DNA from: Erysipelotrichaceae bacterium
Lineage (GTDB): Bacteria; Bacillota_I; Bacilli_A; RFN20; CAG-826
DNA: 64,000 nucleotides
Reading direction: 5' to 3'
Assembly (NCBI GenBank): GCA_012837435.1
Contig: DURD01000007.1
Coordinates: 11,445-75,444 of the forward strand
Shown here: piece by piece, positions 3,486 through 49,184 of the stretch
Position numbering within the stretch: the first letter of the stretch is position 1
Layout: the number at the start of each line of letters is the position of its first letter
Notes under the pieces: generated by a model
What the model was told of the DNA's origin: nothing
What the model saw: the letters and a program-made list of their open reading frames with translations, nothing else
The model's database searches: none
Made by a program: the position numbers and the translations under genes

Positions 3486-3486
3486 T

Positions 3487-6400
3487 TTATTCATCCTCCA
3501 ATGGGTAAATGTTGTCAGCAATGTAGCTATAGTCATCTTGGCGTTTTTTGCGTTTAATGTCGCAAACAACAAGGTTGTTTTTTTCTACTAAATCTAAAAC
3601 ATTAGCATAAGTATCAGGAAAAACTGTAATTTCAATTTCATCAGTTTCATCGAGAAGTTTAACAAAGGCCATGGTCGACCCCTTTTTGGTATTTATCTTT
3701 TTAACATCTTTAATTAAACCCGCAATTTTAGCTTCAAATAGATATTTAGCTTCAACGATGGGAATGACGTTTTTCTCAGCTAAGATTTCTTTTTTATAAT
3801 ATAGTGGATTATTTGAAATCATCATCCCTAAAACTTCATATTCTCTATTTAGATTTTCGATAGGATCATCTTTTTGCTCGATAGTGTAAGGAGTGATAAA
3901 GGCCGAGAAGCCAATATTTAATTGACCATCTTCTTTATAGGTTAATTCGGCGAATTGAAGAGCGCTCTTTACTGTCGCTCTCAGCGAGGCTCTCGAAGGA
4001 TTAAAAGAGTCAAAACAACCAGCATCTATCAGTCGAACAATTTGTTCATCATTAATTTTTAAATTATACATTCGAGAGACAAAATCAAAGAAATCCGTGA
4101 ATGGCTTTTCTTTTCTTTCATTTATTATGTTATCCACTAATAAGTTATTAATGCCTTTTATACCGCTGAGTGGGAAGAGCAATCCATTTTCATAGACTAA
4201 AAAAGTTTTCGTCGAAGCGTTGATGTTAGGAGCAATAATTTTAATGTTCCTTTTTTTCATTTCGCTGACATATTCACTAAATTTAGTATCGGATGTTCCG
4301 CTGGCGGTCTCCAAAATAGCGGCGTAAAATTCTAGGGGATAATGAAGTTTTAAAAACGCTGTTCGACAAGTGATGATTGCGTAGACAGCGGGATGGGATT
4401 TATTAAAACCGTAACCCGCAAATTTTTTGATATTGTTAAATACTTTTCTAGCCACGGTTTCCGAATGGCCATTTTTAATTGAACCTTCGATAAAGGCTTT
4501 TTCGTTCGCGCTGATTATTCCCGCATCTTTTTTGGTAATAGCTCTTCTAAACAAATCAGCTTCCGCCATAGAAAATCCCGCCATCACTCGAGCGATTTCA
4601 TTGACTTGTTCTTGATAGACAATAATGCCATATGTCGGTTTTAAAATCTTTTCTAAACATGGATCATCATAAGTAATTTTTTCTTTTCCTTCTTTTCTTT
4701 TTCCGTAGGAAGGAATCGAATCCATCGGTCCGGGACGATATAAAGCTAGCAAAGCAATAATATCATCAAAGCAACTAGGTTTAAGAACGCTAATCGCTCT
4801 TTTTATACCGGAACTTTCCAGTTGAAAGATGCCCAGTGTTTGCCCAGAAGCAATGAATTCATAAACTTCTTTTTCATCGTAGGGAATATTAAATTTATCA
4901 ATAATGGGTATTTTCTTTCCATCGTTTATTAAATCCACACAATAAGAAATAGTGGTTAAATTTCTCAAGGCTAAAAAGTCAATTTTTAAAAAGCCTTGAT
5001 CTTCTAAATAGTTTAATTCGTATTGCGAAATATAGTTGTTAGAAAAGTCTATCGATAAAGGCAAAACTTCTTCTAACGGACCATGATTTAATATGACCCC
5101 AGCGGGATGTAAACCATTTTGTCTTATCAGTCCCTCGATTTTGCTTGCCAAAGACACAATTTGTAAAAAATATTCATCGCTATCCACTAATTTTTTAAAT
5201 TCTGGTATTTGTCGATAAGCTTGTCTTAAAGATAGTTTTGGATTTGATAGTCTTTTAGATAATAAATCGATATGATGAGTCGGAAAATTATATACTCTAC
5301 CGATATCTCTCAAGGCTTGTTTCGCTTGAATCGTTTGATAAGTGACAATATTGGCCACTCGAGAATTTCCGTACTTTTCTCTAACATATTCCACGACATC
5401 GTTACGTTTAATATCCATAAAATCCACATCGATATCGGGCATAGTTTGTCGATGAGGATTTAAAAATCTTTCAAATTGTAAATCTTCTTTAATCGGATCA
5501 ATTTCAGTTATATTAAGCAAGTAAGAAACTAAACTTCCCGCGGCGCTGCCTCTACCTGGTCCCACTAAAATATCGTTATTTTTAGCGTAAGAAACAAAAT
5601 CGTGAACGATTAAAAAATAATCGGCATATCCTAGATTAATAATTGTTTCTAATTCGTAATCTAATCTTTTTTGATAGATTTCAGTGGTTTCTAATCCCTT
5701 ATCCTTTAAAGATTCTCGGCACATTGTTTTTAAAGTCTTACTGGCATCATCAACGGGATAGTGGAGCATTTCCCCTCTTTTTTGATGAAAAGAAAAGGAA
5801 GTCGCCTCAACAATTTCTCTAGTATTTCTAATTTCTTTTGGCGTGTAAATTTTTTGATAATTATTAAAGGACATAAAATAGTCTTGTCCTTTTTCTTTTT
5901 TAATCGTGATTTCTTCTTCAGTGGCGATAGCTTCTACAATCGATAAAACAATCGCGTCATCGGTTTTTAAATATCTAATTTTTGGAAAAGCCACACAATT
6001 ATAAGGATGGTTGCTGACGAAATTTCTTATTTCATTAGCATAGCTAACTTCTTCTTTACTAGTGACCGATATCCCTAGATAAAAGTTACTTTTAAATAAC
6101 ACATCGTAATCGAATAACAAGCGATTAAGCTGTTCTCGATCTTCTTTAAAAAGAGTTTTGAATTTATCGTTAGAAGTCTCGATAACCCCTATCAAGCCCT
6201 CGCTATATTTTTTTAATAATTGGATGTCGAGAGATTGACTGCTTAAAGCGGTAGCAAGTTTCATCAAATGACGATAACCCGTTTCGTTTTTGACATACAA
6301 ACACAAAACATCATCGTTTAGTTCGACTTCCATACCAATGACGTAGGGACGATTTAATTCTTCTGCGGTTTTAATAAAGGCTGGCACCCCGTACATCACT

Positions 6401-38043: not shown

Positions 38044-38120
38044 GTCCTCGTAGCTCAGTTGGACAGAGCAACAGCCTTCTAAGCTGTGGGTCAGGCGTTC
38101 GAGTCGCCTCGAGGATACCA
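38044..38120 (+). tRNA. tRNA-Arg (anticodon UCU), with CCA encoded
   Basis: Manually folded. Acceptor stem GTCCTCG/CGAGGAT (G1-U72 wobble), D-stem GCTC/GAGC, anticodon stem ACAGC/GCTGT with loop CTTCTAA (U33, anticodon TCT, A37), T-stem AGGCG/CGCCT with loop TTCGAGT, and an encoded CCA at the 3' end. Confidence 0.85.
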
Positions 38121-38153: not shown

Positions 38154-38186
38154 ATAGGGGGTTTTGAGAACCAAGCCCCCTTTTTA
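38154..38186 (+). terminator. Terminator-like hairpin after the tRNA (GGGGG/CCCCC stem plus TTTTT)
   Basis: Stem 38157-38161/38176-38180 with a 14-nt loop and a T-run 38181-38185. Confidence 0.45.
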
Positions 38187-38333: not shown

Positions 38334-38576
38334 ATGACTATTAATAACGAACGGGAAGAGCTACACCGAACCATTTGGTGTTTTTCCCATGAACTCATTG
38401 GTAAATCTTATTCCATCACAATGGATAGTTTTTATTGTGCCACTGATAGAATGAGCAAAAACGCATATATAAACCTTGAATCTATCGAAAAAACCTGTTT
38501 GTCGATGGGTTGTAGAATTGAAGATGTGATTGAAATAATTAAAGATGAGGAAAAAAATGATGATAACAATAGATAA
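38334..38576 (+). CDS. Small Cys-containing hypothetical protein (80 aa). It has its own promoter and a strong RBS, and it overlaps the start of the R-M gene.
   Basis: TTGAAA-N17-TAGATT promoter at 38241-38270, an AAGGGGGG RBS and ATG at 38334. The 3' end overlaps the R-M start codon region at 38545-38560 in another frame. No recognisable HTH. Confidence 0.4.
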   Translation: MTINNEREELHRTIWCFSHELIGKSYSITMDSFYCATDRMSKNAYINLESIEKTCLSMGCRIEDVIEIIKDEEKNDDNNR

Positions 38577-41500
38577 TTTAGGCGGATTCTTATTATCTTT
38601 AGGATATACTGAGAATGACAATGTTTATTCATATCACTTCAGTCAATTTGCTTGTGACATTACAGTTGATTTCAATAAAGAAAAAATATACTACCCCGAG
38701 GAAAAGGGCTTAATAGTTAACGAAGCACAAACTACTAATTTTTTAGAAAATGAGAATTTTGTTGTACTTGAGTGCGTTCATAGACTTTTAGATAAAGGAT
38801 ATAATCCATCACATATTGAAATAGAAAAAAGATGGTCGCTTGGTCATTTGCAAAAAAGCGGTCGTGCTGACATATGTGTTATGAATGCCACAGGAACAGA
38901 TATGCTTATCATTATTGAATGTAAAACCTTTGGAAATGAGTATGAAAAAGCTTTGGATGTCTTGAAACAAGATGGCGGACAACTGTTTAGTTATTATCAA
39001 CAGGAGAAATCTACTAAATGGCTTATGCTCTATGCTACAGGTTATGAAAATAAAAAAATAGAACACCAAGTCAATACAATTCCTGTTTTTGATACGGAAA
39101 AAGCTTTAGAAAGATACCAAAAAGATAAAACTATAAAACTATATGAAAATGCACATTCTAAAGAGAGAGCCTTTGAGGTTTGGAAAGATACTTATGAACA
39201 AAAAACATATGATGATTTAATCTTTTCAAAAGATACAATAGCCTATAATATTGGCGAAGAACCTTTAAGAATCAAAGATTTAAAGGACTTCAACCCAAAA
39301 GATAGGATTGTAAATAAGTTTGAGGAGATACTAAGACACAATAATGTATCCGACAAAGAAAATGCTTTTAATAAGCTTACGGCTCTGTTTATATGTAAAC
39401 TCGTAGACGAAATAACAAAAGATGAAAATGATATTGTTGAATTTCAGTATCAATTTGGAACAGATACATACGAAACCTTGCTCGACAGATTGCAAAGACT
39501 GTATAAAGAGGGAATGGATAAGTTTATGAAAGAGGAAATATTTTATGTTTCTTCTGAATATCCTGTAAATCTTTTCAGAAATTACAAAGGGCATAACAGA
39601 AAAAATGCAATAGATGATTTAAAAGAAACTTTTAGAAAGCTAAAATTCTATTCCAATAGCGATTTTGCTTTTAAAGATGTTCATAATGAAGAACTTTTCA
39701 AACAAAACGGAAAAATACTTGTAGAGGTTGTAAAATTATTTGAAAAGTATAGGATTGTTTATCCATCTAAACATCAATTTTTGGGCGATTTGTTTGAACA
39801 GCTTTTAAATCAAGGATTTAAGCAAAACGAAGGTCAATTTTTTACACCTATTCCGATAACACGCTTTATTTGGGAAAGTTTGCCGTTGGAAACATTATCG
39901 TCAAGAACAGGAGGAGATATTTATCCTAAAATAATTGATTATGCTTGCGGTAGCGGACACTTTTTGACTGAAGGCATAGATATTTTAAACAGTATTCATA
40001 AAAGTGAAAATAATGATTGGGTACGAGGAAAAATCTTCGGCATTGAAAAGGATTATAGACTTGCTAGAGTTTCAAAAATTTCTTTATTTATGAATGGTGT
40101 CGGCGGAGGAAACATAATTTTCGGTGATGGACTTGATAATCACAAAGAAAAGGACATCGAGAATAACAGCTTTGATATTCTTGTTGCTAACCCACCTTAT
40201 TCAGTGAAAGCTTTTAAATCTCATTTACAACTCGAAGACAACGAGTTTGAACTCATAAATTTAATTTCTAACGAGGGTAGCGAAATTGAAGTATTATTTG
40301 TTGAAAGGATTTCGCAATTAGTAAAACCGAACGGGGTAGCTGCTGTTATACTTCCCTCAACAATATTAAGTAACACTTCTAATAGCTACATTGGTGCAAG
40401 GGAAGCAATATTAAAAAACTTTAAGATACGAGCTATTGTACAATTAAATGACAAAACCTTTGGGGCGACTGGGACTAATACCGTGGTCTTATTTTTAGAG
40501 AAATATAATGAGCCGCCAAAGCATTTCAAAATGATGGAAGATTCTGTAGAGGCAATTTTCAGTTTACAGACTTCAAAAGAATGGAAAGACGATGAGATAT
40601 TAAATGACTATGTAGACCATATAGGTATAGATACCTCTACCTATTCAGATTTTCTTGAGGAAAAAAGAGATTATAACGAATGGAAAGACGATGAATATTT
40701 TTCAATGTATTTGGATGCCTTTTTAAACTCAACAGAATTTAAAAACATGAATAGTAAAAACTTTTTTAAAAAACTGACTGATCAAGAACAGAAACTGAAG
40801 CTCAATACCACATTTTACAATGATGTAAAAAAAATTGAAAAGGATAAGCTGCTTTATTTCTCCTTAGCAAGAAATAATAAAACCTTAGTTATAAAAGCAC
40901 CTACAACAGCCAACGGACAATATGAGTTTTTAGGTTATCAATGGTCTAAAAGAAAAGGTAATGAGGGAATACAAGTGCAAAATCTTGGCGGGAAACTTTA
41001 CGACCCCAAAAATAGAGAAAGCAAAAAACACATATCTCCACTTATCAAGAAAACATTTAATGATAAGTTCGAAATTATGGATGAGGATTTAGAAGAATAT
41101 GTGAATATATTTCAAACTAAAAACATGTTTGATTTTGGTAGAGAAAAGTTTGATAGAGCAATTAGTTTAGTTGAAAGAGTTCTAAAAATAATAAGTAAAT
41201 ATAAATTAGAGCCATTAAAAAAACATATGCTCGTTATAAGAGGAGTAACCTATTCAAAAGATGAGCAAACTTTGAGCAAAACAGATAATGTAGTTCTTAC
41301 TGCCGACAATATAACTCTCACTCATAGATTGGATATAAAAAAAGAAATTCATTTAAATGATGGAGTAGAACTACCTGATGAGAAGAAGTTATTGGAAAAT
41401 GACATCTTTGTTTGTATGTCGAGCGGTAGTACAAAACATATAGGTAAATTAGCTTATATAACGGAAAACCTTAATAAATATGCGGGTGGTTTTATGGGAA

Positions 41501-41805
41501 TATTGAGGCTAAATTCAAAACAAATATTACCTAAGTACACATACTTTGTTTTAACTACAAATTTATTGCAAAAACAGATAAAATCACTCGGGTTAGGTGG
41601 GAACATAAAAAACATTTCGTCAAATATAGGTAATATAAAAATACCAATCCCCCCTTTAAACGTTCAAAAAGATATCATACAAGAATGTGAAAAAGTCGAA
41701 AGCAAATTTGAAAAAACTCGAATGAAGATAGAAGAATATCAAGACAAAATTAAGGTGATATTTGAAGAACTTGATGTGTTGAAATTTAGCGGGGGGGGGG
41801 TATAA
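38557..41805 (+). CDS. Single-chain restriction-modification enzyme, Type IIB/IIG-like. Domains are an N-terminal PD-(D/E)xK nuclease, a gamma-class N6-adenine methyltransferase and one HsdS-type target-recognition domain. It terminates 3 codons after a G10 tract.
   Basis: Nuclease motif ...RADICVMN...DMLIIIECK. MTase motif I IIDYACGSGHFL and motif IV LVANPPY. A C-terminal TRD with the conserved IKIPIPPLNVQKDI and a coiled-coil tail. GAGG RBS before ATG 38557. The track uses the upstream in-frame ATG at 38545. The sequence ends ...KFSGGGV* across GGGGGGGGGG. Confidence 0.75.
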   Translation: MMITIDNLGGFLLSLGYTENDNVYSYHFSQFACDITVDFNKEKIYYPEEKGLIVNEAQTTNFLENENFVVLECVHRLLDKGYNPSHIEIEKRWSLGHLQKSGRADICVMNATGTDMLIIIECKTFGNEYEKALDVLKQDGGQLFSYYQQEKSTKWLMLYATGYENKKIEHQVNTIPVFDTEKALERYQKDKTIKLYENAHSKERAFEVWKDTYEQKTYDDLIFSKDTIAYNIGEEPLRIKDLKDFNPKDRIVNKFEEILRHNNVSDKENAFNKLTALFICKLVDEITKDENDIVEFQYQFGTDTYETLLDRLQRLYKEGMDKFMKEEIFYVSSEYPVNLFRNYKGHNRKNAIDDLKETFRKLKFYSNSDFAFKDVHNEELFKQNGKILVEVVKLFEKYRIVYPSKHQFLGDLFEQLLNQGFKQNEGQFFTPIPITRFIWESLPLETLSSRTGGDIYPKIIDYACGSGHFLTEGIDILNSIHKSENNDWVRGKIFGIEKDYRLARVSKISLFMNGVGGGNIIFGDGLDNHKEKDIENNSFDILVANPPYSVKAFKSHLQLEDNEFELINLISNEGSEIEVLFVERISQLVKPNGVAAVILPSTILSNTSNSYIGAREAILKNFKIRAIVQLNDKTFGATGTNTVVLFLEKYNEPPKHFKMMEDSVEAIFSLQTSKEWKDDEILNDYVDHIGIDTSTYSDFLEEKRDYNEWKDDEYFSMYLDAFLNSTEFKNMNSKNFFKKLTDQEQKLKLNTTFYNDVKKIEKDKLLYFSLARNNKTLVIKAPTTANGQYEFLGYQWSKRKGNEGIQVQNLGGKLYDPKNRESKKHISPLIKKTFNDKFEIMDEDLEEYVNIFQTKNMFDFGREKFDRAISLVERVLKIISKYKLEPLKKHMLVIRGVTYSKDEQTLSKTDNVVLTADNITLTHRLDIKKEIHLNDGVELPDEKKLLENDIFVCMSSGSTKHIGKLAYITENLNKYAGGFMGILRLNSKQILPKYTYFVLTTNLLQKQIKSLGLGGNIKNISSNIGNIKIPIPPLNVQKDIIQECEKVESKFEKTRMKIEEYQDKIKVIFEELDVLKFSGGGV
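41791..41800 (+). repeat. Homopolymeric G10 tract at the 3' end of the R-M gene, a candidate slipped-strand phase-variation switch
   Basis: Ten consecutive G at 41791-41800. A 1-nt deletion (or +2) would join the R-M frame to the frame of ORF 41822..42307, which is open from 41783 onward. Confidence 0.7.
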
Positions 41806-41821
41806 ACTGAGTGATCCCAAA

Positions 41822-42307
41822 GTGTTCAGCATATCCATTGGACAGAGAGTGTTGCAAGAAGATTTAACGGACATTGGTATTCCTGTGTACAGTGCAAATG
41901 TCTTTGAACCTATGGGATTAATTGATGATAAGCTATTAAATAATTTTGATGACGAATATATTATCTGGGGCATTGATGGAGATTGGATGGTTAATATCTT
42001 ACCTAAAGGTTATGAATTTTATCCGACCGACCATTGTGGAGTAATGCAAGTAGATAAAAATATCATCAACCCGAGATATATGGCTTATATTCTAGAAAAG
42101 GAAGGAGCGAGACTAGGCTTTTCCAGAACTTATAGAGCTTCATTAGATAGAATAAAAGGCATTTCTATCGAAGTGCCTAATGTAAATATTCAGAACGAAA
42201 AAATGAGAGAAGTTGAAGAGTTTGAAAATCAAATAAGAAGTTTAGAAGAAACGCAAATTGATTTAAATTTTGAAATAAGCAATATTATTAAGAAATATTT
42301 GAATTAA
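41822..42307 (+). CDS. HsdS-type target-recognition domain (second TRD). It has no RBS of its own and is probably expressed only as a C-terminal fusion to the upstream R-M protein after a poly-G length change.
   Basis: TRD-like sequence ending in the conserved ISIEVPNVNIQNEKMREVEEFENQIRSL and a coiled-coil. The track start is GTG without a Shine-Dalgarno. Its frame is open back into the G tract. Confidence 0.65.
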   Translation: MFSISIGQRVLQEDLTDIGIPVYSANVFEPMGLIDDKLLNNFDDEYIIWGIDGDWMVNILPKGYEFYPTDHCGVMQVDKNIINPRYMAYILEKEGARLGFSRTYRASLDRIKGISIEVPNVNIQNEKMREVEEFENQIRSLEETQIDLNFEISNIIKKYLN

Positions 42308-42471
42308 TTAGTCAAACAACACAATTAACGAAAACAAAAAACACTTGAAATTACCGCTACGCAATGTTATTACCATAAAGAGTGCGGCGAGGGATAGTCC
42401 TCATGATCCGCCAGCAACCTGCTAATTTATAGGGTGCTAATGTTTGATCATCGAATCAGTTATGTTTAATT

Positions 42472-42504
42472 GACTCATCGAAACCATGTGATGAGTCTTT
42501 TTAT
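42472..42504 (+). terminator. Strong rho-independent terminator (GACTCATC/GATGAGTC stem, 10-nt loop, TTTTTAT)
   Basis: Perfect 8-bp stem followed by a T-run, about 165 nt downstream of the TRD ORF. Confidence 0.7.
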
Positions 42505-43180
42505 CACAAAAAAAGAAACGTAATGAAAAACCTGACCAAATGCTTTTGTCAAAAGAAGTGACAATTTATTCGTCTAACAACATTGCTTTGAAATGGTAAA
42601 GAAACAACTTATTGCTCTGCTTACAAGAATGGAGTTCTCTGTGAATAAAAATTGACTTTACGATTGGCTATCGAGTTCTAGTCAATAGATTTTCTTTTTA
42701 TTACCTTTGCTTCTTCCGTTAAACAAAGTATGTATAGTCAAACTAGATGATGAAAAAGAGACAAACGCTCTAATCCATTCGTAAGGAATGGAGTCTAATC
42801 TAAAAAGTTTTTGATGAGATAATATGAACATTATTGTATTTTTGTAACAAATATTGTAACATACTGGGGAAACATCATTAATTTAGGAGAGTAAATCACG
42901 ATTCCTCATCCTAAACAGTTCCGATTAACACACAAAAAATTACTTATTTAGAGGTTTAGATTAAATCCTCTAGGTAAGTACTCTCACATCATGATGTTAT
43001 TGATAAATATTAAAAACCATTAAGCCCTTGCTTATATGGAAATATATTTAGTACAGTAGTGTCTCATATCGATTGTTAACTTTGTTCGAAATTAAAAAAA
43101 GTTAAGGTTATTTAACTAATGGTTTTAAGCGCTGAATCAAAAGATAAAAAAGATTAAGTTTAAAATAGCAACAATCGAAA

Positions 43181-45997
43181 GTGCAAAAAGAGTTGATAAA
43201 TCAGGGAGAAAGCCATGGAAAAAAATTTAAATTAAGAAAAGATTCTTCTATTTTGATTAAATATCGGAATCTGCTAACACTTATTATTATCATTCTCGGC
43301 TTTGTCTCTTCCTTTCTTTATCTAGGCCATAATTGTCTCAAGAGTTTAAAAAAAGATAGCGATCAATCTATTAGCCTCGCAAAATCCTTTGCCTCTCAAA
43401 TCAATGTCGACAGCGCTTCCTCTTTAAGTGGTAGTGAAGACGACCTTGAAACAGAGGCTTATTTATCCATCAAAAACAATTTTGAAAAGATGGTGGAAAA
43501 CATGAATGTTTTAAAATTTACTTATTTGTTGGGGCAAAAGGGTGACGATATAGTTTATCTTGTCGATTCTGGAAAAGTTGATGCCCCAAATTACTATCGT
43601 CCTGGGCATGTTTATGCTGAGGCCACCGAAGAAATTAAAGAGTTGTTCATCTCCAAAAAAACCATACTCCTTAAATCTCTAGTGGATGAAAAAGGAACCT
43701 GGCGGAGTGTTGTAACTCCAGTCTTAGATTCTAACAACAATGTTATCGCTCTCTTCCGGACGGATTATTCATTCTCGGAATTTCGCAACCGCATCATTTT
43801 TGAACTAACTGACGATATAGCGATTACCGTCTTATTTTTGTTTTTTGTCATCTTTTTTGTCCGCTCGATCTTTAATTATCAGGGATATAAAAATGTTAGC
43901 GAAGAGAAAAAAGTTACGGAAGCGCTCTATCATAGTATTTTCGATCAAGTTCCTTTAGGCGCTGCGATCATCGATGGGGAACGCTTCATCGATGATGAAA
44001 TCTATGGCAACAGCACCATGAACTTTATGTTCCAAAAAATCCTCGGTAGAACTAGCCGTGAACTAGCGAAAATTTCTTCTTGGAGCAATATTTCTCACCC
44101 CGATGATTTAGAAGGGGAGATGGCCTTATATCGTCAATTTAAAAAAGGCAAAATTGATGGCTATACCATCACTAAAAGGTTTTTGAAGCCTGATGGAACC
44201 TATATTTGGGCTCAGATGTGGATTAATCGTTTTATCGGTCAACACGAGGACAATCCCTATCATCTATGTATCATTGAAGATATTACTAAAGAAAAAGAAA
44301 TCGCCGCGGAATTAAAAGAAAGTGAACGAAGCAAATCCCTTCTCCTTTCTAACCTTCCAGGAATGGCTTATCGCTATTCGAGAGATAGTGATAAACAATG
44401 GACGGTCAAATTTGCTTCCTCGGGATGTTTAGCCCTAACGGGATTTACCGTTGAAGAATTTTTAAAAAGCAAAGATAATCTCAGAGATTTTGTCGTTCCT
44501 GAACACTATGAAATATTAGAAGAAGAATGGTTTCAAGCCATTGCTAACAAACGCAATTTTAGATGCGAATATCAAATTATTACCGCTAATGGGGAACGCA
44601 AATGGGTCATCGATTTAGCTCAATACATCCAAGATGAAAAAGGCAAAGTGATAGCTCTAGAAGGAATTATGCTCGATATCGACGATCGGAAAGAGGCGGA
44701 AAATCAACTCAAATACACTTCTGAACACGACAGTGAAACAGGTTTATTGAACTATACTAGTCTCCAAAAAGATGTGGAAAGAGATTATAGCAAACACGTT
44801 AAACAAACCATTATCGATGTCAACTTGAATACTTTTGTCCGCATCAGCGTGATATTTGGACATTTCTATATACTGTATTTACTAAACGCCATCGCCGAAC
44901 AACTAAGAAAAATTTCTAGCGATAAAAATACTTTATATCGAGCCTATGGCAACCATCTGGTCTTTTATGTTAAAAACTATAAAGATCGAAATGAACTTTT
45001 AGACTTTGCTAAAAACATTAAAAAACTTCTCGAAGAAAAATTAAAACCAGAAGGTATCGGCGCCGGCATTGGAGTTGTGGAAGTGGAAAACGATGGGAAA
45101 CTGGATCTCAATAAATTGACAAAGAGAGTTTATTTGACCTCGAGCCAGGCGATTGCCCGTTATCCGAATGAAGTGGGAATAGTGTTTTTTGATCGCGAAC
45201 TGGAAGTCAAAATTCAACGTCAAGAAGATGTTAAACGAGCGCTTTACGATGTGGTCGATAAAAATGACACTGAGAACTTTTATATGCAATTCCAGCCGAT
45301 TCTCGATCTCAAAACTAATAAAATTGTTTCTTTTGAAGCTTTAGCTAGACTAAAAAATGAAGAATTAGGTAATATTTCTCCTCTAGAATTTATCCCGATT
45401 GCCGAAGAAACCAAGTTAATTATTCCTCTCGGATGGAATATCTTCCGTCAATCGTTTAACTTTCTAAAAAAATTAATTGCTTTAGGATATACGGAGATGC
45501 GAGTTTCCATCAATGTCTCGGCCATTCAATTATTTAGCGAAAACTTTACCACTCTTCTATTTAAATTAATGGATGAGATGCAGATTTTACCGACCAATGT
45601 GAACATCGAATTAACAGAATCAGTCTTCTCTTCGGATTTAGGAGAAATTAATAAAGTGCTAAATGAGATTCATAGTCGCGGATTAACTATCTCTATCGAT
45701 GATTTTGGCACCGGTTATTCTTCTCTTGCGAGAGAACACGAATTAAACGTCGATTGCCTTAAAATCGATAAGTATTTCGTCGATAAATTAATGGAAGTCT
45801 CGAGTGAAGAAGCTATCGCCTCGGATATCATCGCTATGGCGCATAAACGCGGTCATGGAGTCATCGCTGAAGGCGTGGAATACGAAAAACAAAAGCAATA
45901 TTTAATTGATAATAAATGCGATAAAATTCAAGGTTATCTCATCAGCAAACCGCTCAGCCAAGAAAACGCTCTAAATTTACTTAAAGAAAAAGCGTAA
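43181..45997 (+). CDS. Membrane sensor c-di-GMP phosphodiesterase. Architecture: TM, extracytoplasmic domain, TM, PAS, PAS, degenerate GGDEF, EAL.
   Basis: Two hydrophobic segments flank an extracytoplasmic domain of about 170 aa. PAS folds are present (…ITKRFLKPDGTYIWAQMW…; …EYQIITANGERKWV…). The GGDEF position reads YGNHL, so it is degenerate. The EAL domain has all catalytic motifs (FEALARL, NVS, ELTES, DDFGTGYSS, KIDK, EGVE, QGYL). The start codon is uncertain (GTG at 43181 or TTG at 43193). Confidence 0.75.
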   Translation: MQKELINQGESHGKKFKLRKDSSILIKYRNLLTLIIIILGFVSSFLYLGHNCLKSLKKDSDQSISLAKSFASQINVDSASSLSGSEDDLETEAYLSIKNNFEKMVENMNVLKFTYLLGQKGDDIVYLVDSGKVDAPNYYRPGHVYAEATEEIKELFISKKTILLKSLVDEKGTWRSVVTPVLDSNNNVIALFRTDYSFSEFRNRIIFELTDDIAITVLFLFFVIFFVRSIFNYQGYKNVSEEKKVTEALYHSIFDQVPLGAAIIDGERFIDDEIYGNSTMNFMFQKILGRTSRELAKISSWSNISHPDDLEGEMALYRQFKKGKIDGYTITKRFLKPDGTYIWAQMWINRFIGQHEDNPYHLCIIEDITKEKEIAAELKESERSKSLLLSNLPGMAYRYSRDSDKQWTVKFASSGCLALTGFTVEEFLKSKDNLRDFVVPEHYEILEEEWFQAIANKRNFRCEYQIITANGERKWVIDLAQYIQDEKGKVIALEGIMLDIDDRKEAENQLKYTSEHDSETGLLNYTSLQKDVERDYSKHVKQTIIDVNLNTFVRISVIFGHFYILYLLNAIAEQLRKISSDKNTLYRAYGNHLVFYVKNYKDRNELLDFAKNIKKLLEEKLKPEGIGAGIGVVEVENDGKLDLNKLTKRVYLTSSQAIARYPNEVGIVFFDRELEVKIQRQEDVKRALYDVVDKNDTENFYMQFQPILDLKTNKIVSFEALARLKNEELGNISPLEFIPIAEETKLIIPLGWNIFRQSFNFLKKLIALGYTEMRVSINVSAIQLFSENFTTLLFKLMDEMQILPTNVNIELTESVFSSDLGEINKVLNEIHSRGLTISIDDFGTGYSSLAREHELNVDCLKIDKYFVDKLMEVSSEEAIASDIIAMAHKRGHGVIAEGVEYEKQKQYLIDNKCDKIQGYLISKPLSQENALNLLKEKA

Positions 45998-46301: not shown

Positions 46302-49094
46302 ATGAGGGAAAAAGCTAAAAATAAAATTGATTCGACTTTTCTTAAAAAATATAAGAAATTGATCTTTGTTTTTGTGCTTCCCATCAGCTTGATATTTTCT
46401 GCTATTTATATCGGCATCAGTTGGCATCAAAATTATAAGGATAATGTCGATTTTGCCATCAACCTTTCTCAAGCCTTTACCGCCCATTTGGATTTAGAGG
46501 AAATCAATTCTTTAAGTGGTAGCGAAGACGATCTTGAAAAAGAAGAATATCGATTAATTAAACAAGATATCGAAAGACTAGTTAAAACTACGGAAATGAT
46601 ACAATGCACTTATCTATTAGGGCAGCGTAATGACGATATAGTTTTTCTCGTCGATTCTACATCATCGAATTCACAAAATAATTTTTCTCCCGGTCAAATT
46701 TGTGCTGAAGCCACTAAAGAAATTAAACAAATTTTCACTTCTAAAAAAACAATATTCATCGATTCCTTAACTGATGAAAAAGGAACATGGAAAACCGTTT
46801 TTGTTCCAGTTTTAGATGCGAATGAAGAAAATGTCGTCGCTCTTTTTCGCGTCGATTATTCAATTTCGAGATGGAACAATCAAATCTTAAAGAGAATGGT
46901 CGGTAGCATTATGTTTTCAATCTTGCTTGTATTTTTTGTAATCATTCTCATGCGTGCCATGCATGCTTATGGGGAATATAAGAAGATTAACTCTAAAAGC
47001 GAACTAGTGGGGACGTTATACGATAGTATTTTTGACCAAGTACCTCTTGGTATCGCCATCGTCAATGATGAGAGTTTTGTCGAAAAGTCAAAATACGGCG
47101 ATAGAAATATGAACTTTATGTTTCAAAAAATCCTCGGTAGAACGAGTGAAGAACTGACAAATATTTCTTGGAACAATATTACTCATCCCGACGATTTAGA
47201 AGGGGAGATGGCCTTATATAGTCAATTTAAGGAAGGTAAGATCGATGGATATACTATCACCAAAAGGCTTTTGAAGCCCGATGGAACCTATGTTTGGGCC
47301 CAAGTGTGGATCAACCGCTTCTTAGATAAAAGTGAAAATAGTTCTTCCCATTTATTGATTATCAGCGACATTACCAAAGAAAAAGAAATGGCGGAAGACT
47401 TAAAGGAAAGTGAACGGAGCAAATCCCTTCTCCTTTCTAACCTTCCGGGGATGGCTTATCGCTATTCGAGAGATAGTGGCGACAACTGGTCGATGAAATT
47501 CGTTTCCTCGGGATGTTTAGCCTTGACGGGATATACGGCGGAAGAACTTTTAGAAGACAAACATCTGCACGAAGATTTAATCGCTCCAGGCTATCATAGA
47601 ATTCTAAGAAATCAGTGGCAGCGGCTCATCGCTGGTAAACGCAGTTTTAGACACGAATACGAAATAGTGACCGCGGACGGTAGCCGTAAATGGGTGCTAG
47701 ATTTAGCGCAGAGCGTCCTAGATGAAGATGACCAACTCCAAGCTCTAGAAGGAATTATGTTCGATATTACCGAAAAGAAAATCGCGGAAAATAAACTCAA
47801 ATACACTTACGAACACGATGATGAGACCGGTTTATTAAATTACACCAGCCTCCAAAGAGATATTAAAAACGATCATAAAAAACAAATTAAACAAGCGATT
47901 ATCGATGTAAATCTCAATACTTTTGTCAGTTTAAGCGCGGTTTTTGGGTTTTTCTATGTCCAAAAACTAATCCTAACGATTTCTGAAAGTCTCCAACGCT
48001 TCTCCAAAGAAAAATCGAAGTTATATAAATCATACGGAAACCATTTTATTTTCTATATCAAAGATTACGACGATCAAGAAGAACTTATAGATTTCGCTAA
48101 TAAAATTAAGAAATCTCTCGAAGAAATCATCAAACCAGAACGCGTCGGCGCTGGAATTGGAGTGGTGGAAATTAAGGTTGATGAAGAAGTAAATCTTGAA
48201 GATTTGTCTAAAAAAGTTTTCCTGACTTCAAATAAAGCCATTTCTTTAAACGAGAGCGAAGTGGGAATTTTGTTCTATGATAGTGAACTAAAGGCTCAGA
48301 TTCAGCGCGAAGAAGATATTAAGCGCATCCTCCTCGAGGTGGCAAACCATCAAGAGAGCGATAATTTTTACTTGCAGTTTCAACCGATTCTCGATCTTAA
48401 AACTAATAATATTTGTTCTTTTGAAGCTCTAGCTAGACTAAAAGATAAACAATTAGGTAACATTCCTCCCCTAGAATTTATCCCGATTGCCGAAGAAATA
48501 AAAGTGATTATTCCTTTGGGGTGGAATATATTCCGCCAAGCCTTTATTTTTTTGAAAAAGGCGGTCGACTTAGGTTACACAAAAGTGAGAGTTTCCATCA
48601 ACGTCTCGGCTCTTCAACTATTCAGCAACAATTTTACTCAACTTTTATTCGATTTAATGGATGAGATGGAAGTTCCTTCTCATAATGTTGCTCTTGAATT
48701 AACCGAATCAGTATTTTCTTCGGATTTAGATGAAATCAATAAAATACTCAACGAAATCCATAATCGGGGAATATATATCTCCATCGATGATTTTGGGACG
48801 GGCTATTCTTCTTTAGCTCGAGAGCGCGAGTTAAATGTCGACTGTCTTAAAATCGATCGGTATTTTATCAAAAAACTTATGGATATCTCTTATAACGAAG
48901 CCATCACCGCGGACATCATTGCCATCGGTCATAAGCGTGGTCACTGCGTTATTGCCGAAGGCGTGGAGCACGAAAAACAAAAGCAATATTTAATCGACAA
49001 CGGATGCGATAAGATTCAAGGTTATCTCATCAGCAAACCTCTCAGCCAAAAAGAAGCTTTGAATCTGCTCAAAGAAAAATGCACGATGAACTAA
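46302..49094 (+). CDS. Paralogous membrane sensor c-di-GMP phosphodiesterase, with the same architecture as 43181..45997
   Basis: Same domain order and motifs, with a strong AAGGAGAG RBS. It is about 65% identical to the upstream paralogue at the protein level and has a degenerate GGDEF (YGNHF). Confidence 0.75.
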   Translation: MREKAKNKIDSTFLKKYKKLIFVFVLPISLIFSAIYIGISWHQNYKDNVDFAINLSQAFTAHLDLEEINSLSGSEDDLEKEEYRLIKQDIERLVKTTEMIQCTYLLGQRNDDIVFLVDSTSSNSQNNFSPGQICAEATKEIKQIFTSKKTIFIDSLTDEKGTWKTVFVPVLDANEENVVALFRVDYSISRWNNQILKRMVGSIMFSILLVFFVIILMRAMHAYGEYKKINSKSELVGTLYDSIFDQVPLGIAIVNDESFVEKSKYGDRNMNFMFQKILGRTSEELTNISWNNITHPDDLEGEMALYSQFKEGKIDGYTITKRLLKPDGTYVWAQVWINRFLDKSENSSSHLLIISDITKEKEMAEDLKESERSKSLLLSNLPGMAYRYSRDSGDNWSMKFVSSGCLALTGYTAEELLEDKHLHEDLIAPGYHRILRNQWQRLIAGKRSFRHEYEIVTADGSRKWVLDLAQSVLDEDDQLQALEGIMFDITEKKIAENKLKYTYEHDDETGLLNYTSLQRDIKNDHKKQIKQAIIDVNLNTFVSLSAVFGFFYVQKLILTISESLQRFSKEKSKLYKSYGNHFIFYIKDYDDQEELIDFANKIKKSLEEIIKPERVGAGIGVVEIKVDEEVNLEDLSKKVFLTSNKAISLNESEVGILFYDSELKAQIQREEDIKRILLEVANHQESDNFYLQFQPILDLKTNNICSFEALARLKDKQLGNIPPLEFIPIAEEIKVIIPLGWNIFRQAFIFLKKAVDLGYTKVRVSINVSALQLFSNNFTQLLFDLMDEMEVPSHNVALELTESVFSSDLDEINKILNEIHNRGIYISIDDFGTGYSSLARERELNVDCLKIDRYFIKKLMDISYNEAITADIIAIGHKRGHCVIAEGVEHEKQKQYLIDNGCDKIQGYLISKPLSQKEALNLLKEKCTMN

Positions 49095-49184
49095 ACTATC
49101 TATCAGATGATTGATATATAATAAATGTTGATAAATAGAGATAAAAAACTTTTTTGTCTCTTTATATTAAAAAATAGAAATATT

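What the first reader, a model, noticed from the sequence alone, without database searches (positions are those of the whole stretch)
38334..42307. Single-chain R-M-S restriction-modification enzyme whose second specificity domain is gated by a G10 homopolymer
The protein encoded at 38545-41805 carries an N-terminal PD-(D/E)xK nuclease, a gamma-class N6-adenine MTase (DYACGSG / NPPY) and one HsdS-like TRD. This is the Type IIB/IIG single-chain architecture (AloI/PpiI/TstI/CjeI-like).

It terminates as ...KFSGGGV* directly across a run of ten G at 41791-41800. A second, complete HsdS-type TRD ORF begins 17 nt later at 41822. This ORF has no RBS, and its frame is open back into the G tract from 41783. 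A -1 (or +2) slip in the G tract would therefore fuse it in frame.

That would convert a one-TRD enzyme, which presumably recognises a symmetric site as a homodimer, into a canonical two-TRD Type IIB enzyme with a bipartite asymmetric site of about 1250 aa, the normal size for this class.

This fits a phase-variable, specificity-switching restriction-modification system sitting immediately 3' of a tRNA-Arg gene. Poly-G gated R-M genes are known in Campylobacter, Haemophilus and Mycoplasma. I cannot tell from sequence alone whether this particular arrangement has been described.
Basis: partly seen in the sequence, partly recalled or inferred. Interest (0 to 1): 0.75.

Follow-up and report, generated by a model that had tools for sequence, protein, structure and literature searches.

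The report
Poly-G switch in single-chain restriction enzyme
A run of ten G's sits exactly between the two DNA-reading modules of a one-protein restriction-modification enzyme, and relatives in other bacteria show that this run changes length very easily, so cells can flip between a one-module and a two-module enzyme; this is a known kind of switch found here in an enzyme class where I found no published description of it.

Summary
G10 at 41791-41800 is the only G/C run of 7 or more in 64 kb (0.004 expected). It ends a 1081-1086 aa protein made of a PD-ExK nuclease, a gamma N6-adenine methyltransferase and one HsdS-like TRD. It is followed, out of frame, by an intact second TRD. G9 or G12 gives a 1253 aa two-TRD protein whose S module superimposes on whole HsdS subunits.

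Comparative data support phase variation. Among 120 homologs, 91 carry the tract at the same junction. Their sequences decode to G6-G19: 48 in frame, 43 truncated. In one species, G9, G10 and G14 alleles are identical over the other 3.7 kb, and six other homopolymers never vary. TRD1 is the variable cassette and TRD2 is nearly constant.

Most likely this is a contingency switch between an AloI/TstI-like two-TRD enzyme and a HaeIV-like one-TRD enzyme that would dimerise on a symmetric site. The assembled window is in the one-TRD state. Whether the short form is active is inferred, not shown. The inference rests on NgoAV, engineered M~half-S fusions, and at least five lineages that lost TRD2 but kept the rest intact.

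It is a new variant of a known kind. No published description for single-chain Type IIB enzymes was found. Only G10 was seen in this organism.

The parts
38044..38120 (+). tRNA-Arg (anticodon TCT). Context only: the left neighbour of the R-M unit.
   Evidence: ARAGORN. Rfam RF00005, 65.9 bits. No direct repeat of 12 nt or more of the tRNA is found downstream.
38156..38181 (+). Terminator-like hairpin after the tRNA, which isolates the R-M unit transcriptionally on its 5' side.
   Evidence: Consensus scan.
38334..38576 (+). 80-aa ORF, a 5'-truncated remnant of a small XRE/HTH_26 gene (possibly a controller protein) that in relatives is intact and overlaps the RMS start. Only about 38448-38552 is conserved.
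   Evidence: Pfam HTH_26 at 6.7e-4, below the curated cutoff, aa 39-71 only. tblastn and blastn to L001, L007 and L011 cover only the C-terminal half, and the nucleotide similarity starts at about 38448. Intact 71-aa and 86-aa versions are in L001 and L011.
38560..41805 (+). R-M-TRD1 gene as assembled (G10): 1081 aa from ATG 38560, with alternative starts at 38557 and 38545. This is the short, one-TRD isoform.
   Evidence: ORF list. Identical to NCBI HHT66742.1, 'N-6 DNA methylase', Erysipelotrichaceae MAG. Pfam domains.
38773..38949 (+). N-terminal PD-(D/E)xK nuclease domain, with catalytic motif AD108...E125-C-K127 at 38866-38925.
   Evidence: Pfam HSDR_N_2 at 8e-6, aa 77-135. Motif search.
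39772..40542 (+). Gamma-class N6-adenine DNA methyltransferase domain. Motif I DYACGSG is at 39937-39957 and motif IV NPPY at 40189-40200.
   Evidence: Pfam N6_Mtase at 3.8e-35 and Eco57I at 3.3e-12. PDB RM.BsaXI at 1.2e-31. Motifs.
41200..41655 (+). TRD1, the variable specificity cassette (median 24% identity to 60 full-length homologs).
   Evidence: Pfam Methylase_S. Aligns with the N-terminal TRD of EcoKI HsdS at 4e-15. Per-region identities. Model pLDDT about 90.
41656..41778 (+). Central conserved helix of about 41 residues, the coiled-coil and dimerisation element. The short isoform ends a few residues after it.
   Evidence: AlphaFold model, helix 171-211 of the S-module segment. Homologous to the distal helix region by BLAST, 1.7e-6.
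41791..41800 (+). G10 homopolymer, the hypermutable switch. It encodes the GGG loop between the central helix and the first strand of TRD2.
   Evidence: uniqueness, chance expectation. (conserved DNA context GAY-Gn-TACARACTAAGTGAT). (length polymorphism). (position in the model).
41801..42307 (+). TRD2 plus the distal conserved helix (about 42182-42304) and the stop codon. Intact, but out of frame in G10 and in frame in G9 or G12. This is the near-constant module of the family (median 71% identity).
   Evidence: Pfam Methylase_S at 4.1e-8. Fusion translation. Region identities. Model strands 217-343 and helices 346-385.
42472..42497 (+). Terminator-like hairpin, and the first terminator after the tract, so TRD2 lies on the same transcript as the RMS gene.
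   Evidence: Consensus scan.

Best explanation
The locus is a single-gene restriction-modification-specificity enzyme of the Type IIB kind: an N-terminal PD-ExK nuclease, a gamma N6-adenine methyltransferase, and a C-terminal HsdS-like specificity module. Its two target-recognition domains are joined through a poly-G contingency tract. Slipped-strand mispairing during replication changes the tract length. At G9 or G12 the gene makes a 1253 aa AloI/TstI-like protein, TRD1-helix-GGG-TRD2-helix, that should read a bipartite asymmetric site. At G10, the state assembled here, or at G8, G11 or G13, translation stops 1-3 codons after the tract. The result is a 1081 aa HaeIV-like protein that ends just after the central coiled-coil helix. 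The most likely behaviour of this short form is that two chains pair through that helix, giving a 2RM:2TRD1 complex that methylates and cuts a symmetric TRD1-TRD1 site. If so, the tract switches specificity rather than simply turning the enzyme off. Shown here: the anatomy, the frame logic, conservation of the tract at this junction, and its hypervariability in relatives. Inferred: that this particular strain switches, and that the short form is active with a different specificity.
For: 1. The tract is not chance. It is the only G/C run of 7 or more in 64 kb, with 0.0036 expected. GGG is the rarest Gly codon here (13%), yet three of them sit in a row.
2. The tract is conserved in place. 91 of 120 closest homologs have Gly(n) at the same junction. 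7 of 10 genome loci from different families share GAY-Gn-TACARACTAAGTGAT, and all three cultured isolates among them have G9 in frame.
3. The tract is hypervariable. Protein tails decode to G6-G19: 48 in frame and 43 out of frame, in both alternative frames. In one species, 13 contigs from different samples carry G9, G10 or G14 with zero differences over the other 3.7 kb. TRD2 is intact in all of them, and six other homopolymers (A7, T7, C6) are invariant.
4. The tract sits in the loop between the central helix and the first strand of TRD2. The fused module matches whole HsdS subunits and S.BsaXI at E 1e-14 to 3e-9.
5. No terminator lies between the tract and the end of TRD2.
6. The one-TRD form looks viable. 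At least five lineages, 64-72% identical to one another, have lost the tract and deleted or frameshifted TRD2, yet keep an intact R-M-TRD1 ORF of 1060-1092 aa in many samples. One sits tightly between purL and purE.
7. Precedents exist. In NgoAV hsdS, the poly-G truncated form reads GCAN8TGC and the fused form GCAN7STCA (PMC9577141). SSRs in hsdS genes lie between the two TRDs (PMC7383803). HaeIV is an R~M~1TRD homodimer on a symmetric site, and AloI/CjeI are R~M~2TRD enzymes of about 1250 aa (PMC3874165). An engineered HsdM~half-S fusion, cut just before TRD2, was active in both restriction and modification (PMC6158711).
Against: No reads were available, so tract heterogeneity in this organism is untested. 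The only other assembly of this locus, L036, is 100% identical over 8 kb and also has G10, and it may come from the same data. Activity and specificity of either isoform are unmeasured. The one-TRD lineages are each internally 99-100% identical, so purifying selection on them could not be quantified; they could be recent decay products. A switch to a new specificity in a combined R-M enzyme exposes an unmethylated chromosome, which would be costly. TstI methylates and cuts unmodified sites at similar rates (PMC4027205), which may soften this cost but does not remove it. The counts of in-frame and out-of-frame alleles are of 90%-identity cluster representatives, not population frequencies.
Confidence: 0.6

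Rival explanations
1. Plain ON/OFF phase variation. The tract is hypermutable, but only the two-TRD protein is active. The G10 product is an inactive or unstable fragment, so this strain is currently in the OFF phase for both restriction and methylation.
For: Most SSR-controlled R-M genes, such as Type III mod genes and C. jejuni Cj0031, are ON/OFF switches (PMC4889913, PMC5909438). G9 is the modal length and is the state in all three cultured isolates. An unfused half-S construct lost restriction activity, attributed by the authors to instability (PMC6158711). The switchability evidence itself fits this reading equally well.
Against: The truncation falls exactly at the natural half-S boundary, after a complete TRD and the full central helix, not within a catalytic domain. 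SSRs in hsdS at this position switch specificity in NgoAV (PMC9577141). Several lineages keep a 3.2 kb R-M-TRD1 ORF intact after losing TRD2 altogether. G10 alleles are at least as widely sampled as G9 in the species examined: 47 index blocks against 20 contigs.
Confidence: 0.28
2. Both isoforms are made in one cell. RNA polymerase slippage or ribosomal frameshifting on the G10 run yields a minority of full-length protein from the G10 allele, so the tract sets a ratio of isoforms rather than a binary state.
For: Long homopolymers are known sites of transcriptional slippage (general knowledge, not tested here). TRD2 lies on the same transcript, with no terminator before it.
Against: No stimulatory RNA structure follows the tract; the fold is weaker than shuffled controls, z = +1.75. 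DNA-level length polymorphism already explains both isoforms. There is no direct evidence for slippage at the RNA level.
Confidence: 0.07
3. Artefact, or a dead gene in this organism. G10 is a homopolymer miscall of a true G9, or it is a fixed frameshift in a gene on its way to decay, with no switching.
For: The source is a metagenome-assembled genome. Only G10 is seen in this organism. The upstream HTH gene is already truncated. Decayed relatives exist (L008, L011, L029).
Against: Two assemblies agree on G10. Both reading frames are otherwise intact over 3.7 kb in AT-rich DNA. In the species examined, contigs with MEGAHIT- and SPAdes-style names show only this tract varying, while the A7, T7 and C6 runs are stable, which argues against generic homopolymer error.
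Confidence: 0.05

Closest known systems
NgoAV Type I system of Neisseria gonorrhoeae (poly-G in hsdS), and SSR-bearing hsdS genes in general
   Same: A homopolymer lies between TRD1 plus the central conserved helix and TRD2. One frame gives a full two-TRD specificity module. The other frames give a half module that dimerises and reads a symmetric site (GCAN8TGC against GCAN7STCA; PMC9577141). A REBASE survey found that SSRs in hsdS always lie between the TRDs (PMC7383803).
   Different: In NgoAV, S is a separate subunit of a three-gene, ATP-dependent Type I system. Here nuclease, methyltransferase and both TRDs are in one polypeptide with no motor domain, so the switch also changes the ratio of catalytic domains to TRDs from 1:2 to 1:1.
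AloI / PpiI / TstI / CjeI single-chain Type IIB enzymes
   Same: The G9 product has the same order of parts and the same size: PD-ExK nuclease, gamma m6A methyltransferase, two HsdS-like TRDs with two helices, 1253 aa against about 1250 (PMC3874165, PMC4027205).
   Different: Those enzymes are described as fixed two-TRD proteins. I found no report of a slippery tract in them.
HaeIV (single-chain, one-TRD Type IIB)
   Same: The G10 product has the R~M~one-TRD layout that Loenen et al. assign to HaeIV, which cuts on both sides of the symmetric site GAY N5 RTC, probably as a homodimer (PMC3874165, PMC4027205).
   Different: HaeIV is a fixed architecture. Here it would be one phase of a switchable gene. 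Homology to HaeIV and dimerisation were not tested.
Helicobacter pylori Type IIG enzymes JHP1272 / HP1353-54
   Same: These are single-chain R-M enzymes in which a second homopolymer near the 3' end adds a C-terminal recognition element and changes specificity, for example GGWTAA to GGWCNA (PMC3936762).
   Different: Those are MmeI-like enzymes with contiguous asymmetric sites and one-strand methylation. The added piece is a small partial TRD, not a whole HsdS-type TRD plus helix.
BcgI / BsaXI two-subunit Type IIB systems
   Same: RM.BsaXI is the closest solved relative of the catalytic part (1.2e-31), and S.BsaXI matches the S module. The short-form dimer would reproduce their 2RM:2TRD stoichiometry.
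   Different: In those systems S is a separate two-TRD protein. No phase variation is described for them.

Membership tests
Single-chain Type IIB R-M-S enzymes (AloI/TstI/CjeI-like) | N-terminal PD-(D/E)xK nuclease domain | tested here: met
   Pfam HSDR_N_2 at 8e-6 (26.4 bits, cutoff 25), aa 77-135. Motif AD108...E125CK127.
Single-chain Type IIB R-M-S enzymes (AloI/TstI/CjeI-like) | Gamma-class N6-adenine methyltransferase in the same chain (motif I before motif IV) | tested here: met
   N6_Mtase at 3.8e-35. DYACGSG at 465-471 comes before NPPY at 549-552. RM.BsaXI at 1.2e-31.
Single-chain Type IIB R-M-S enzymes (AloI/TstI/CjeI-like) | The locus encodes two HsdS-like TRDs, each followed by a conserved helix, collinear with R-M, for about 1250 aa in total | tested here: met
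   The G9 reading gives 1253 aa with two Methylase_S stretches. The model has TRD-helix-TRD-helix and aligns over 398-428 columns with whole HsdS subunits. 48 homologs are continuous two-TRD proteins.
Single-chain Type IIB R-M-S enzymes (AloI/TstI/CjeI-like) | One uninterrupted reading frame through both TRDs in this sequence as assembled | tested here: not met
   G10 puts TRD2 in the +1 frame, and the chain stops at 41805. The allele in the window is the truncated phase.
Single-chain Type IIB R-M-S enzymes (AloI/TstI/CjeI-like) | No ATP-dependent translocase domain | tested here: met
   No helicase or ResIII family appears among the Pfam or NCBIfam hits.
Single-chain Type IIB R-M-S enzymes (AloI/TstI/CjeI-like) | Sequence homology to AloI, PpiI, TstI or CjeI themselves | not tested
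REBASE is not among the libraries.
Single-chain Type IIB R-M-S enzymes (AloI/TstI/CjeI-like) | [quoted passage not shown] | not testable with these tools
   Needs enzyme assays or methylome data.
HaeIV-like one-TRD single-chain Type IIB | R~M~single TRD in one chain | tested here: met
   The G10 product has nuclease, methyltransferase, one Methylase_S domain and the central helix.
HaeIV-like one-TRD single-chain Type IIB | Homodimer acting on a symmetric site | not testable with these tools
   Only indirect support. The central helix is homologous to the distal helix it would normally pair with. One-TRD derivatives persist in nature.
SSR contingency locus (phase-variable R-M gene) | Homopolymer within the reading frame, long enough for slippage (7 or more) | tested here: met
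   G10 at 41791-41800.
SSR contingency locus (phase-variable R-M gene) | Tract-length polymorphism between otherwise identical alleles | tested here: met
   Met in relatives. G9, G10 and G14 alleles show 0 differences in 3.7 kb across 13 contigs, and other homopolymers are invariant. G6-G19 is seen across the family. For the window's own strain only G10 is known.
SSR contingency locus (phase-variable R-M gene) | Within-population heterogeneity and reversibility in this organism | not testable with these tools
   No reads or clonal lineages were available.
NgoAV-type hsdS specificity switch (Type I) | SSR placed after TRD1 and the central conserved region, before TRD2 | tested here: met
   The model puts GGG in the loop between helix 171-211 and strand 217-220.
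NgoAV-type hsdS specificity switch (Type I) | Separate HsdS, HsdM and HsdR subunits with an ATP-dependent motor | tested here: not met
   All functions are in one ORF and there is no motor domain. It works like NgoAV but is not a Type I system.
NgoAV-type hsdS specificity switch (Type I) | Both isoforms active, with different recognition sequences | not testable with these tools
   Needs methylome or cleavage mapping of G9 and G10 alleles.

The most novel reading that the evidence does not exclude
A horizontally spread family of single-chain Type IIB enzymes in host-associated and anaerobic-digester Firmicutes carries a conserved poly-G switch. The switch converts one gene between a HaeIV-type enzyme (one TRD, 1RM:1TRD, symmetric site) and an AloI-type enzyme (two TRDs, 1RM:2TRD, asymmetric site). 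Specificity would then diversify on two levels: recombinational swapping of the variable TRD1, and slippage-controlled attachment of a near-constant TRD2. If both phases are active, these natural isogenic pairs would give a direct experimental handle on a question Loenen et al. call 'a mystery': how AloI-type enzymes work with only one catalytic unit per two TRDs.
Probability: 0.5. Interest if true: 0.62.

Novelty: new variant of a known kind. Interest (0 to 1): 0.5.

Why it matters
Switching specificity through a repeat tract between the two TRDs is established for multi-subunit Type I systems, and a related trick exists in MmeI-like H. pylori enzymes. Here the same logic appears in a one-polypeptide Type IIB enzyme. 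It is conserved across many commensal and environmental Firmicutes and is demonstrably hypervariable in metagenomes.

If both phases are active, a single 3.8 kb gene gives a population two restriction barriers and two methylomes. That matters for phage defence, for gene flow in gut, oral and vaginal communities, and possibly for epigenetic regulation.

It also links two architectures, HaeIV-like and AloI-like, that are listed separately in the literature. It would supply matched natural variants for testing how AloI-type enzymes cope with one catalytic unit per two TRDs.

A practical point for annotation: the many 'N-6 DNA methylase' plus orphan 'hypothetical protein' or 'Methylase_S' gene pairs in MAGs are one switchable gene.

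Tried and rejected
- **Other alleles of the window's own gene.** An exact-pattern scan of metagenome contigs found nothing. The exact-protein look-up found one more contig, L036, also G10 and 100% identical, so it says nothing about heterogeneity.
- **tRNA-targeted island.** There is no repeat of 12 nt or more of the tRNA-Arg downstream, and no integrase in the unit. Similarity to relatives begins only about 110 nt upstream of the start codon. The adjacency is real, but an integration mechanism is unsupported.
- **Programmed frameshift signal.** The RNA after the tract folds worse than shuffled controls. Rejected as a designed feature.
- **Separately translated TRD2.** In the window the first start in that frame is GTG 41822, with no Shine-Dalgarno sequence. 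An ATG overlapping the tract exists only in some relatives (the AAT-GAC context) and is not conserved. Considered unlikely.
- **dN/dS on fixed one-TRD lineages.** Not possible, because each lineage is 99-100% identical internally.
- **Plasmid collection.** No relative above 35% identity.
- **Rfam over the window.** Only the tRNA was found.
- **NCBIfam.** Only sub-threshold MADS and BREX methyltransferase similarities, reflecting the shared methyltransferase fold.
- **Literature searches** for a phase-variable AloI/CjeI/TstI-type enzyme found none. The library is open-access only, so absence is not proof.
- **Guessing the half-site.** TRD1 resembles the N-terminal TRD of EcoKI, which reads AAC. 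I treat this as a lead only and make no claim.

Full report
**Observation.** The window has a run of ten G at 41791-41800. It is the only G or C homopolymer of 7 or more in the 64 kb. The next longest is 6, and base composition (35.8% GC) predicts 0.0036 runs of 10 or more. The ORF 38545-41805 ends ...KFSGGGV* across the run. The probable start is ATG 38560, seven bases after GAGGA, which matches the public annotation of 1081 aa (HHT66742.1, 'N-6 DNA methylase', Erysipelotrichaceae MAG). Pfam finds an HSDR_N_2 nuclease domain (aa 77-135), N6_Mtase/Eco57I (410-666) and Methylase_S (926-1058). The catalytic motifs AD...ECK, DYACGSG and NPPY are intact and in gamma-class order. The next ORF, 41822-42307, has a GTG start and no Shine-Dalgarno sequence. 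Its frame is open back to 41783, and it is a second Methylase_S domain (4e-8). Changing the run to G9 or G12 gives one ORF of 1253 or 1254 aa. G8, G10, G11 and G13 stop one to three codons after the run.

**Structure of the specificity module.** An AlphaFold model of the fused C-terminal 386 residues was built on 14 homologs (pTM 0.71; TRD1 and the helices have pLDDT around 90). It shows TRD1, a 41-residue helix, a short loop holding the GGG, TRD2, and a second long helix. It aligns over 398-428 columns with complete two-TRD HsdS subunits (1ydx, 1yf2, EcoKI S, PacII S) and with S.BsaXI of a Type IIB system, at E 1e-14 to 3e-9. The closest solved relative of the catalytic part is RM.BsaXI (1.2e-31). 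No motor domain is present. The fused form therefore has the AloI/TstI/CjeI layout and size (about 1250 aa; PMC3874165, PMC4027205). The form as assembled has the R~M~one-TRD layout that the same review gives for HaeIV.

**Is the tract a switch?** The comparative evidence says yes.
- Among the 120 best homologs, lengths fall into two groups, about 1242-1253 aa and about 1076-1094 aa.
- The long ones read ...GGG-Y(K/R)LSD.... The short ones end just after the glycines in the two other frames, as GGGVQTK* or GGGGTD*/TN*.
- With the conserved DNA context GAY-Gn-TACARACTAAGTGAT, these tails decode to tract lengths of G6 to G19. 48 are in frame (G6, G9, G12) and 43 are out of frame (G7, G8, G10, G11, G13, G14, G19). 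G9 is the commonest in-frame length and G10 the commonest out-of-frame length.
- Seven of ten genome loci from different families carry the tract. All three cultured isolates among them (Johnsonella ignava ATCC 51276, Tissierellia KA00581, Eubacteriales KG125) have G9.
- In one species sampled in many metagenomes, 13 contigs with G9, G10 or G14 have no other difference in the remaining 3.7 kb of the gene, and TRD2 is intact in all of them.
- Six other homopolymers (A7, T7, C6) in and around that gene are invariant. This argues against generic homopolymer sequencing error. The neighbouring gene content of these contigs differs, so they are separate strains or samples.
- GGG is the rarest glycine codon in the window (13%), so keeping three in a row across lineages that are only 55-78% identical in protein points to selection for the tract itself.

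**Family design.** Compared with 60 full-length homologs, TRD1 is a swapped cassette (median 24% identity to the window's TRD1). The nuclease, linker and methyltransferase regions are 68-91% identical, and TRD2 is mostly constant (median 71%). A few lineages, including Mesomycoplasma ovipneumoniae, carry other TRD2 types. The tract therefore controls whether a largely constant second half-site reader is attached.

**Is the short form functional?** This cannot be shown here. Several results bear on it.
- The truncation falls at the natural half-S boundary, after a complete TRD and the full central helix.
- That helix is homologous to the distal helix it normally pairs with.
- At least five lineages, 64-72% identical to one another, have lost the tract and TRD2 but keep an intact 1060-1092 aa R-M-TRD1 gene in many samples. 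One sits between purL and purE, with purE starting 16 nt after its stop. Two ride in a conjugative-element backbone, with TRD2 either cut after 34 codons or frameshifted. Others are L003 and L035.
- Each of these lineages is nearly clonal, so selection on them could not be measured.
- Published precedents: the NgoAV truncated HsdS reads GCAN8TGC and the fused form GCAN7STCA (PMC9577141). SSRs in hsdS genes always lie between the TRDs (PMC7383803). EcoDXXI deletion derivatives read symmetric sites, and HaeIV probably acts as a homodimer on a symmetric site (PMC3874165). An engineered HsdM~half-S fusion, cut just before TRD2, restricts and modifies (PMC6158711).
- A short-form dimer would have the 2RM:2TRD ratio of BcgI-type enzymes. 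The long form has the 1RM:2TRD ratio that Loenen et al. call a mystery.

**Alternatives.** A plain ON/OFF switch is the main rival, at about 0.28. RNA-level slippage producing both forms from G10 is possible, but nothing supports it, and the RNA after the tract is less structured than shuffled controls. A miscall or a decaying gene in this organism cannot be excluded without reads. Two assemblies agree on G10, but they may share data. Separate translation of TRD2 is unlikely in the window, because there is no usable start with a ribosome-binding site.

**Context.** The unit lies between terminator-like hairpins at 38156-81 and 42472-97, with none between the tract and the end of TRD2. tRNA-Arg is immediately upstream, but no tRNA repeat or integrase marks an island. 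The 80-aa ORF at 38334-38576 is the 3' half of a small HTH gene that is intact and overlaps the RMS start in relatives. It may once have been a controller gene.

**Comparison and novelty.** The locus works like NgoAV but is not a Type I system. It has the AloI/TstI architecture in one phase and the HaeIV architecture in the other. It also recalls the H. pylori JHP1272 switch, which adds a small partial TRD to an MmeI-like enzyme (PMC3936762). Searches of the open-access literature found no description of a repeat-tract switch in a single-chain Type IIB enzyme; REBASE could not be consulted. I rate it a new variant of a known kind and of moderate interest. The principle is expected, but the family-wide conservation, the clear population-level hypervariability and the link between two textbook architectures are worth a follow-up.

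Noticed in passing
window 38334-38576: The small ORF upstream of the enzyme is only the C-terminal half of an XRE/HTH_26-type gene. In relatives this gene is intact (71-86 aa) and overlaps the enzyme's start codon, so it may be a controller protein that is truncated in this genome.
   Followed up: partly
window 43181-45997 and about 46302-49100: Two tandem paralogous PAS-GGDEF-EAL genes, 74-76% identical at the DNA level, lie directly downstream of the R-M unit.
   Followed up: no
window 42308-43180: An 870-base stretch with no ORF of 50 aa or more and no Rfam match. It holds one terminator-like hairpin at 42472-42497. Its role, perhaps a leader for the GGDEF-EAL gene, is unknown.
   Followed up: no
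L032-L034, gene at 2501-5779: A one-TRD relative with no tract and no TRD2 is inserted between purL and purE of a purine operon. purE starts 16 nt after its stop.
   Followed up: partly
L012-L015 and L029-L031: Two different one-TRD derivatives sit in the same conjugative-element backbone (DUF3991, SNase, sortase, resolvase, RMS, small ORFs, topoisomerase III, SSB). This family therefore also travels on mobile elements.
   Followed up: partly
L011 5977-7526: In a Lentihominibacter MAG, an 89%-identical copy is broken into 293 aa and 181 aa pieces and ends at about residue 509. It is a pseudogene, although its upstream HTH gene is intact.
   Followed up: no
L008 9259-9272: In a Lachnospiraceae MAG the tract is G12 followed by TG. 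The start of TRD2 is changed (the conserved AGTGAT reads AGATAT), and a TAA lies soon after it. This may be a decaying version of the switch.
   Followed up: no
window 41200-41655 (TRD1): TRD1 aligns with the N-terminal TRD of EcoKI HsdS, which reads AAC, at E 4e-15. This is a lead for guessing the half-site, nothing more.
   Followed up: no
L036 against the metagenome-contig scan: An exact-pattern scan of metagenome contigs missed a JGI contig (sample 3300002898) that contains the pattern and was found by the protein look-up. The two collections are not the same.
   Followed up: no
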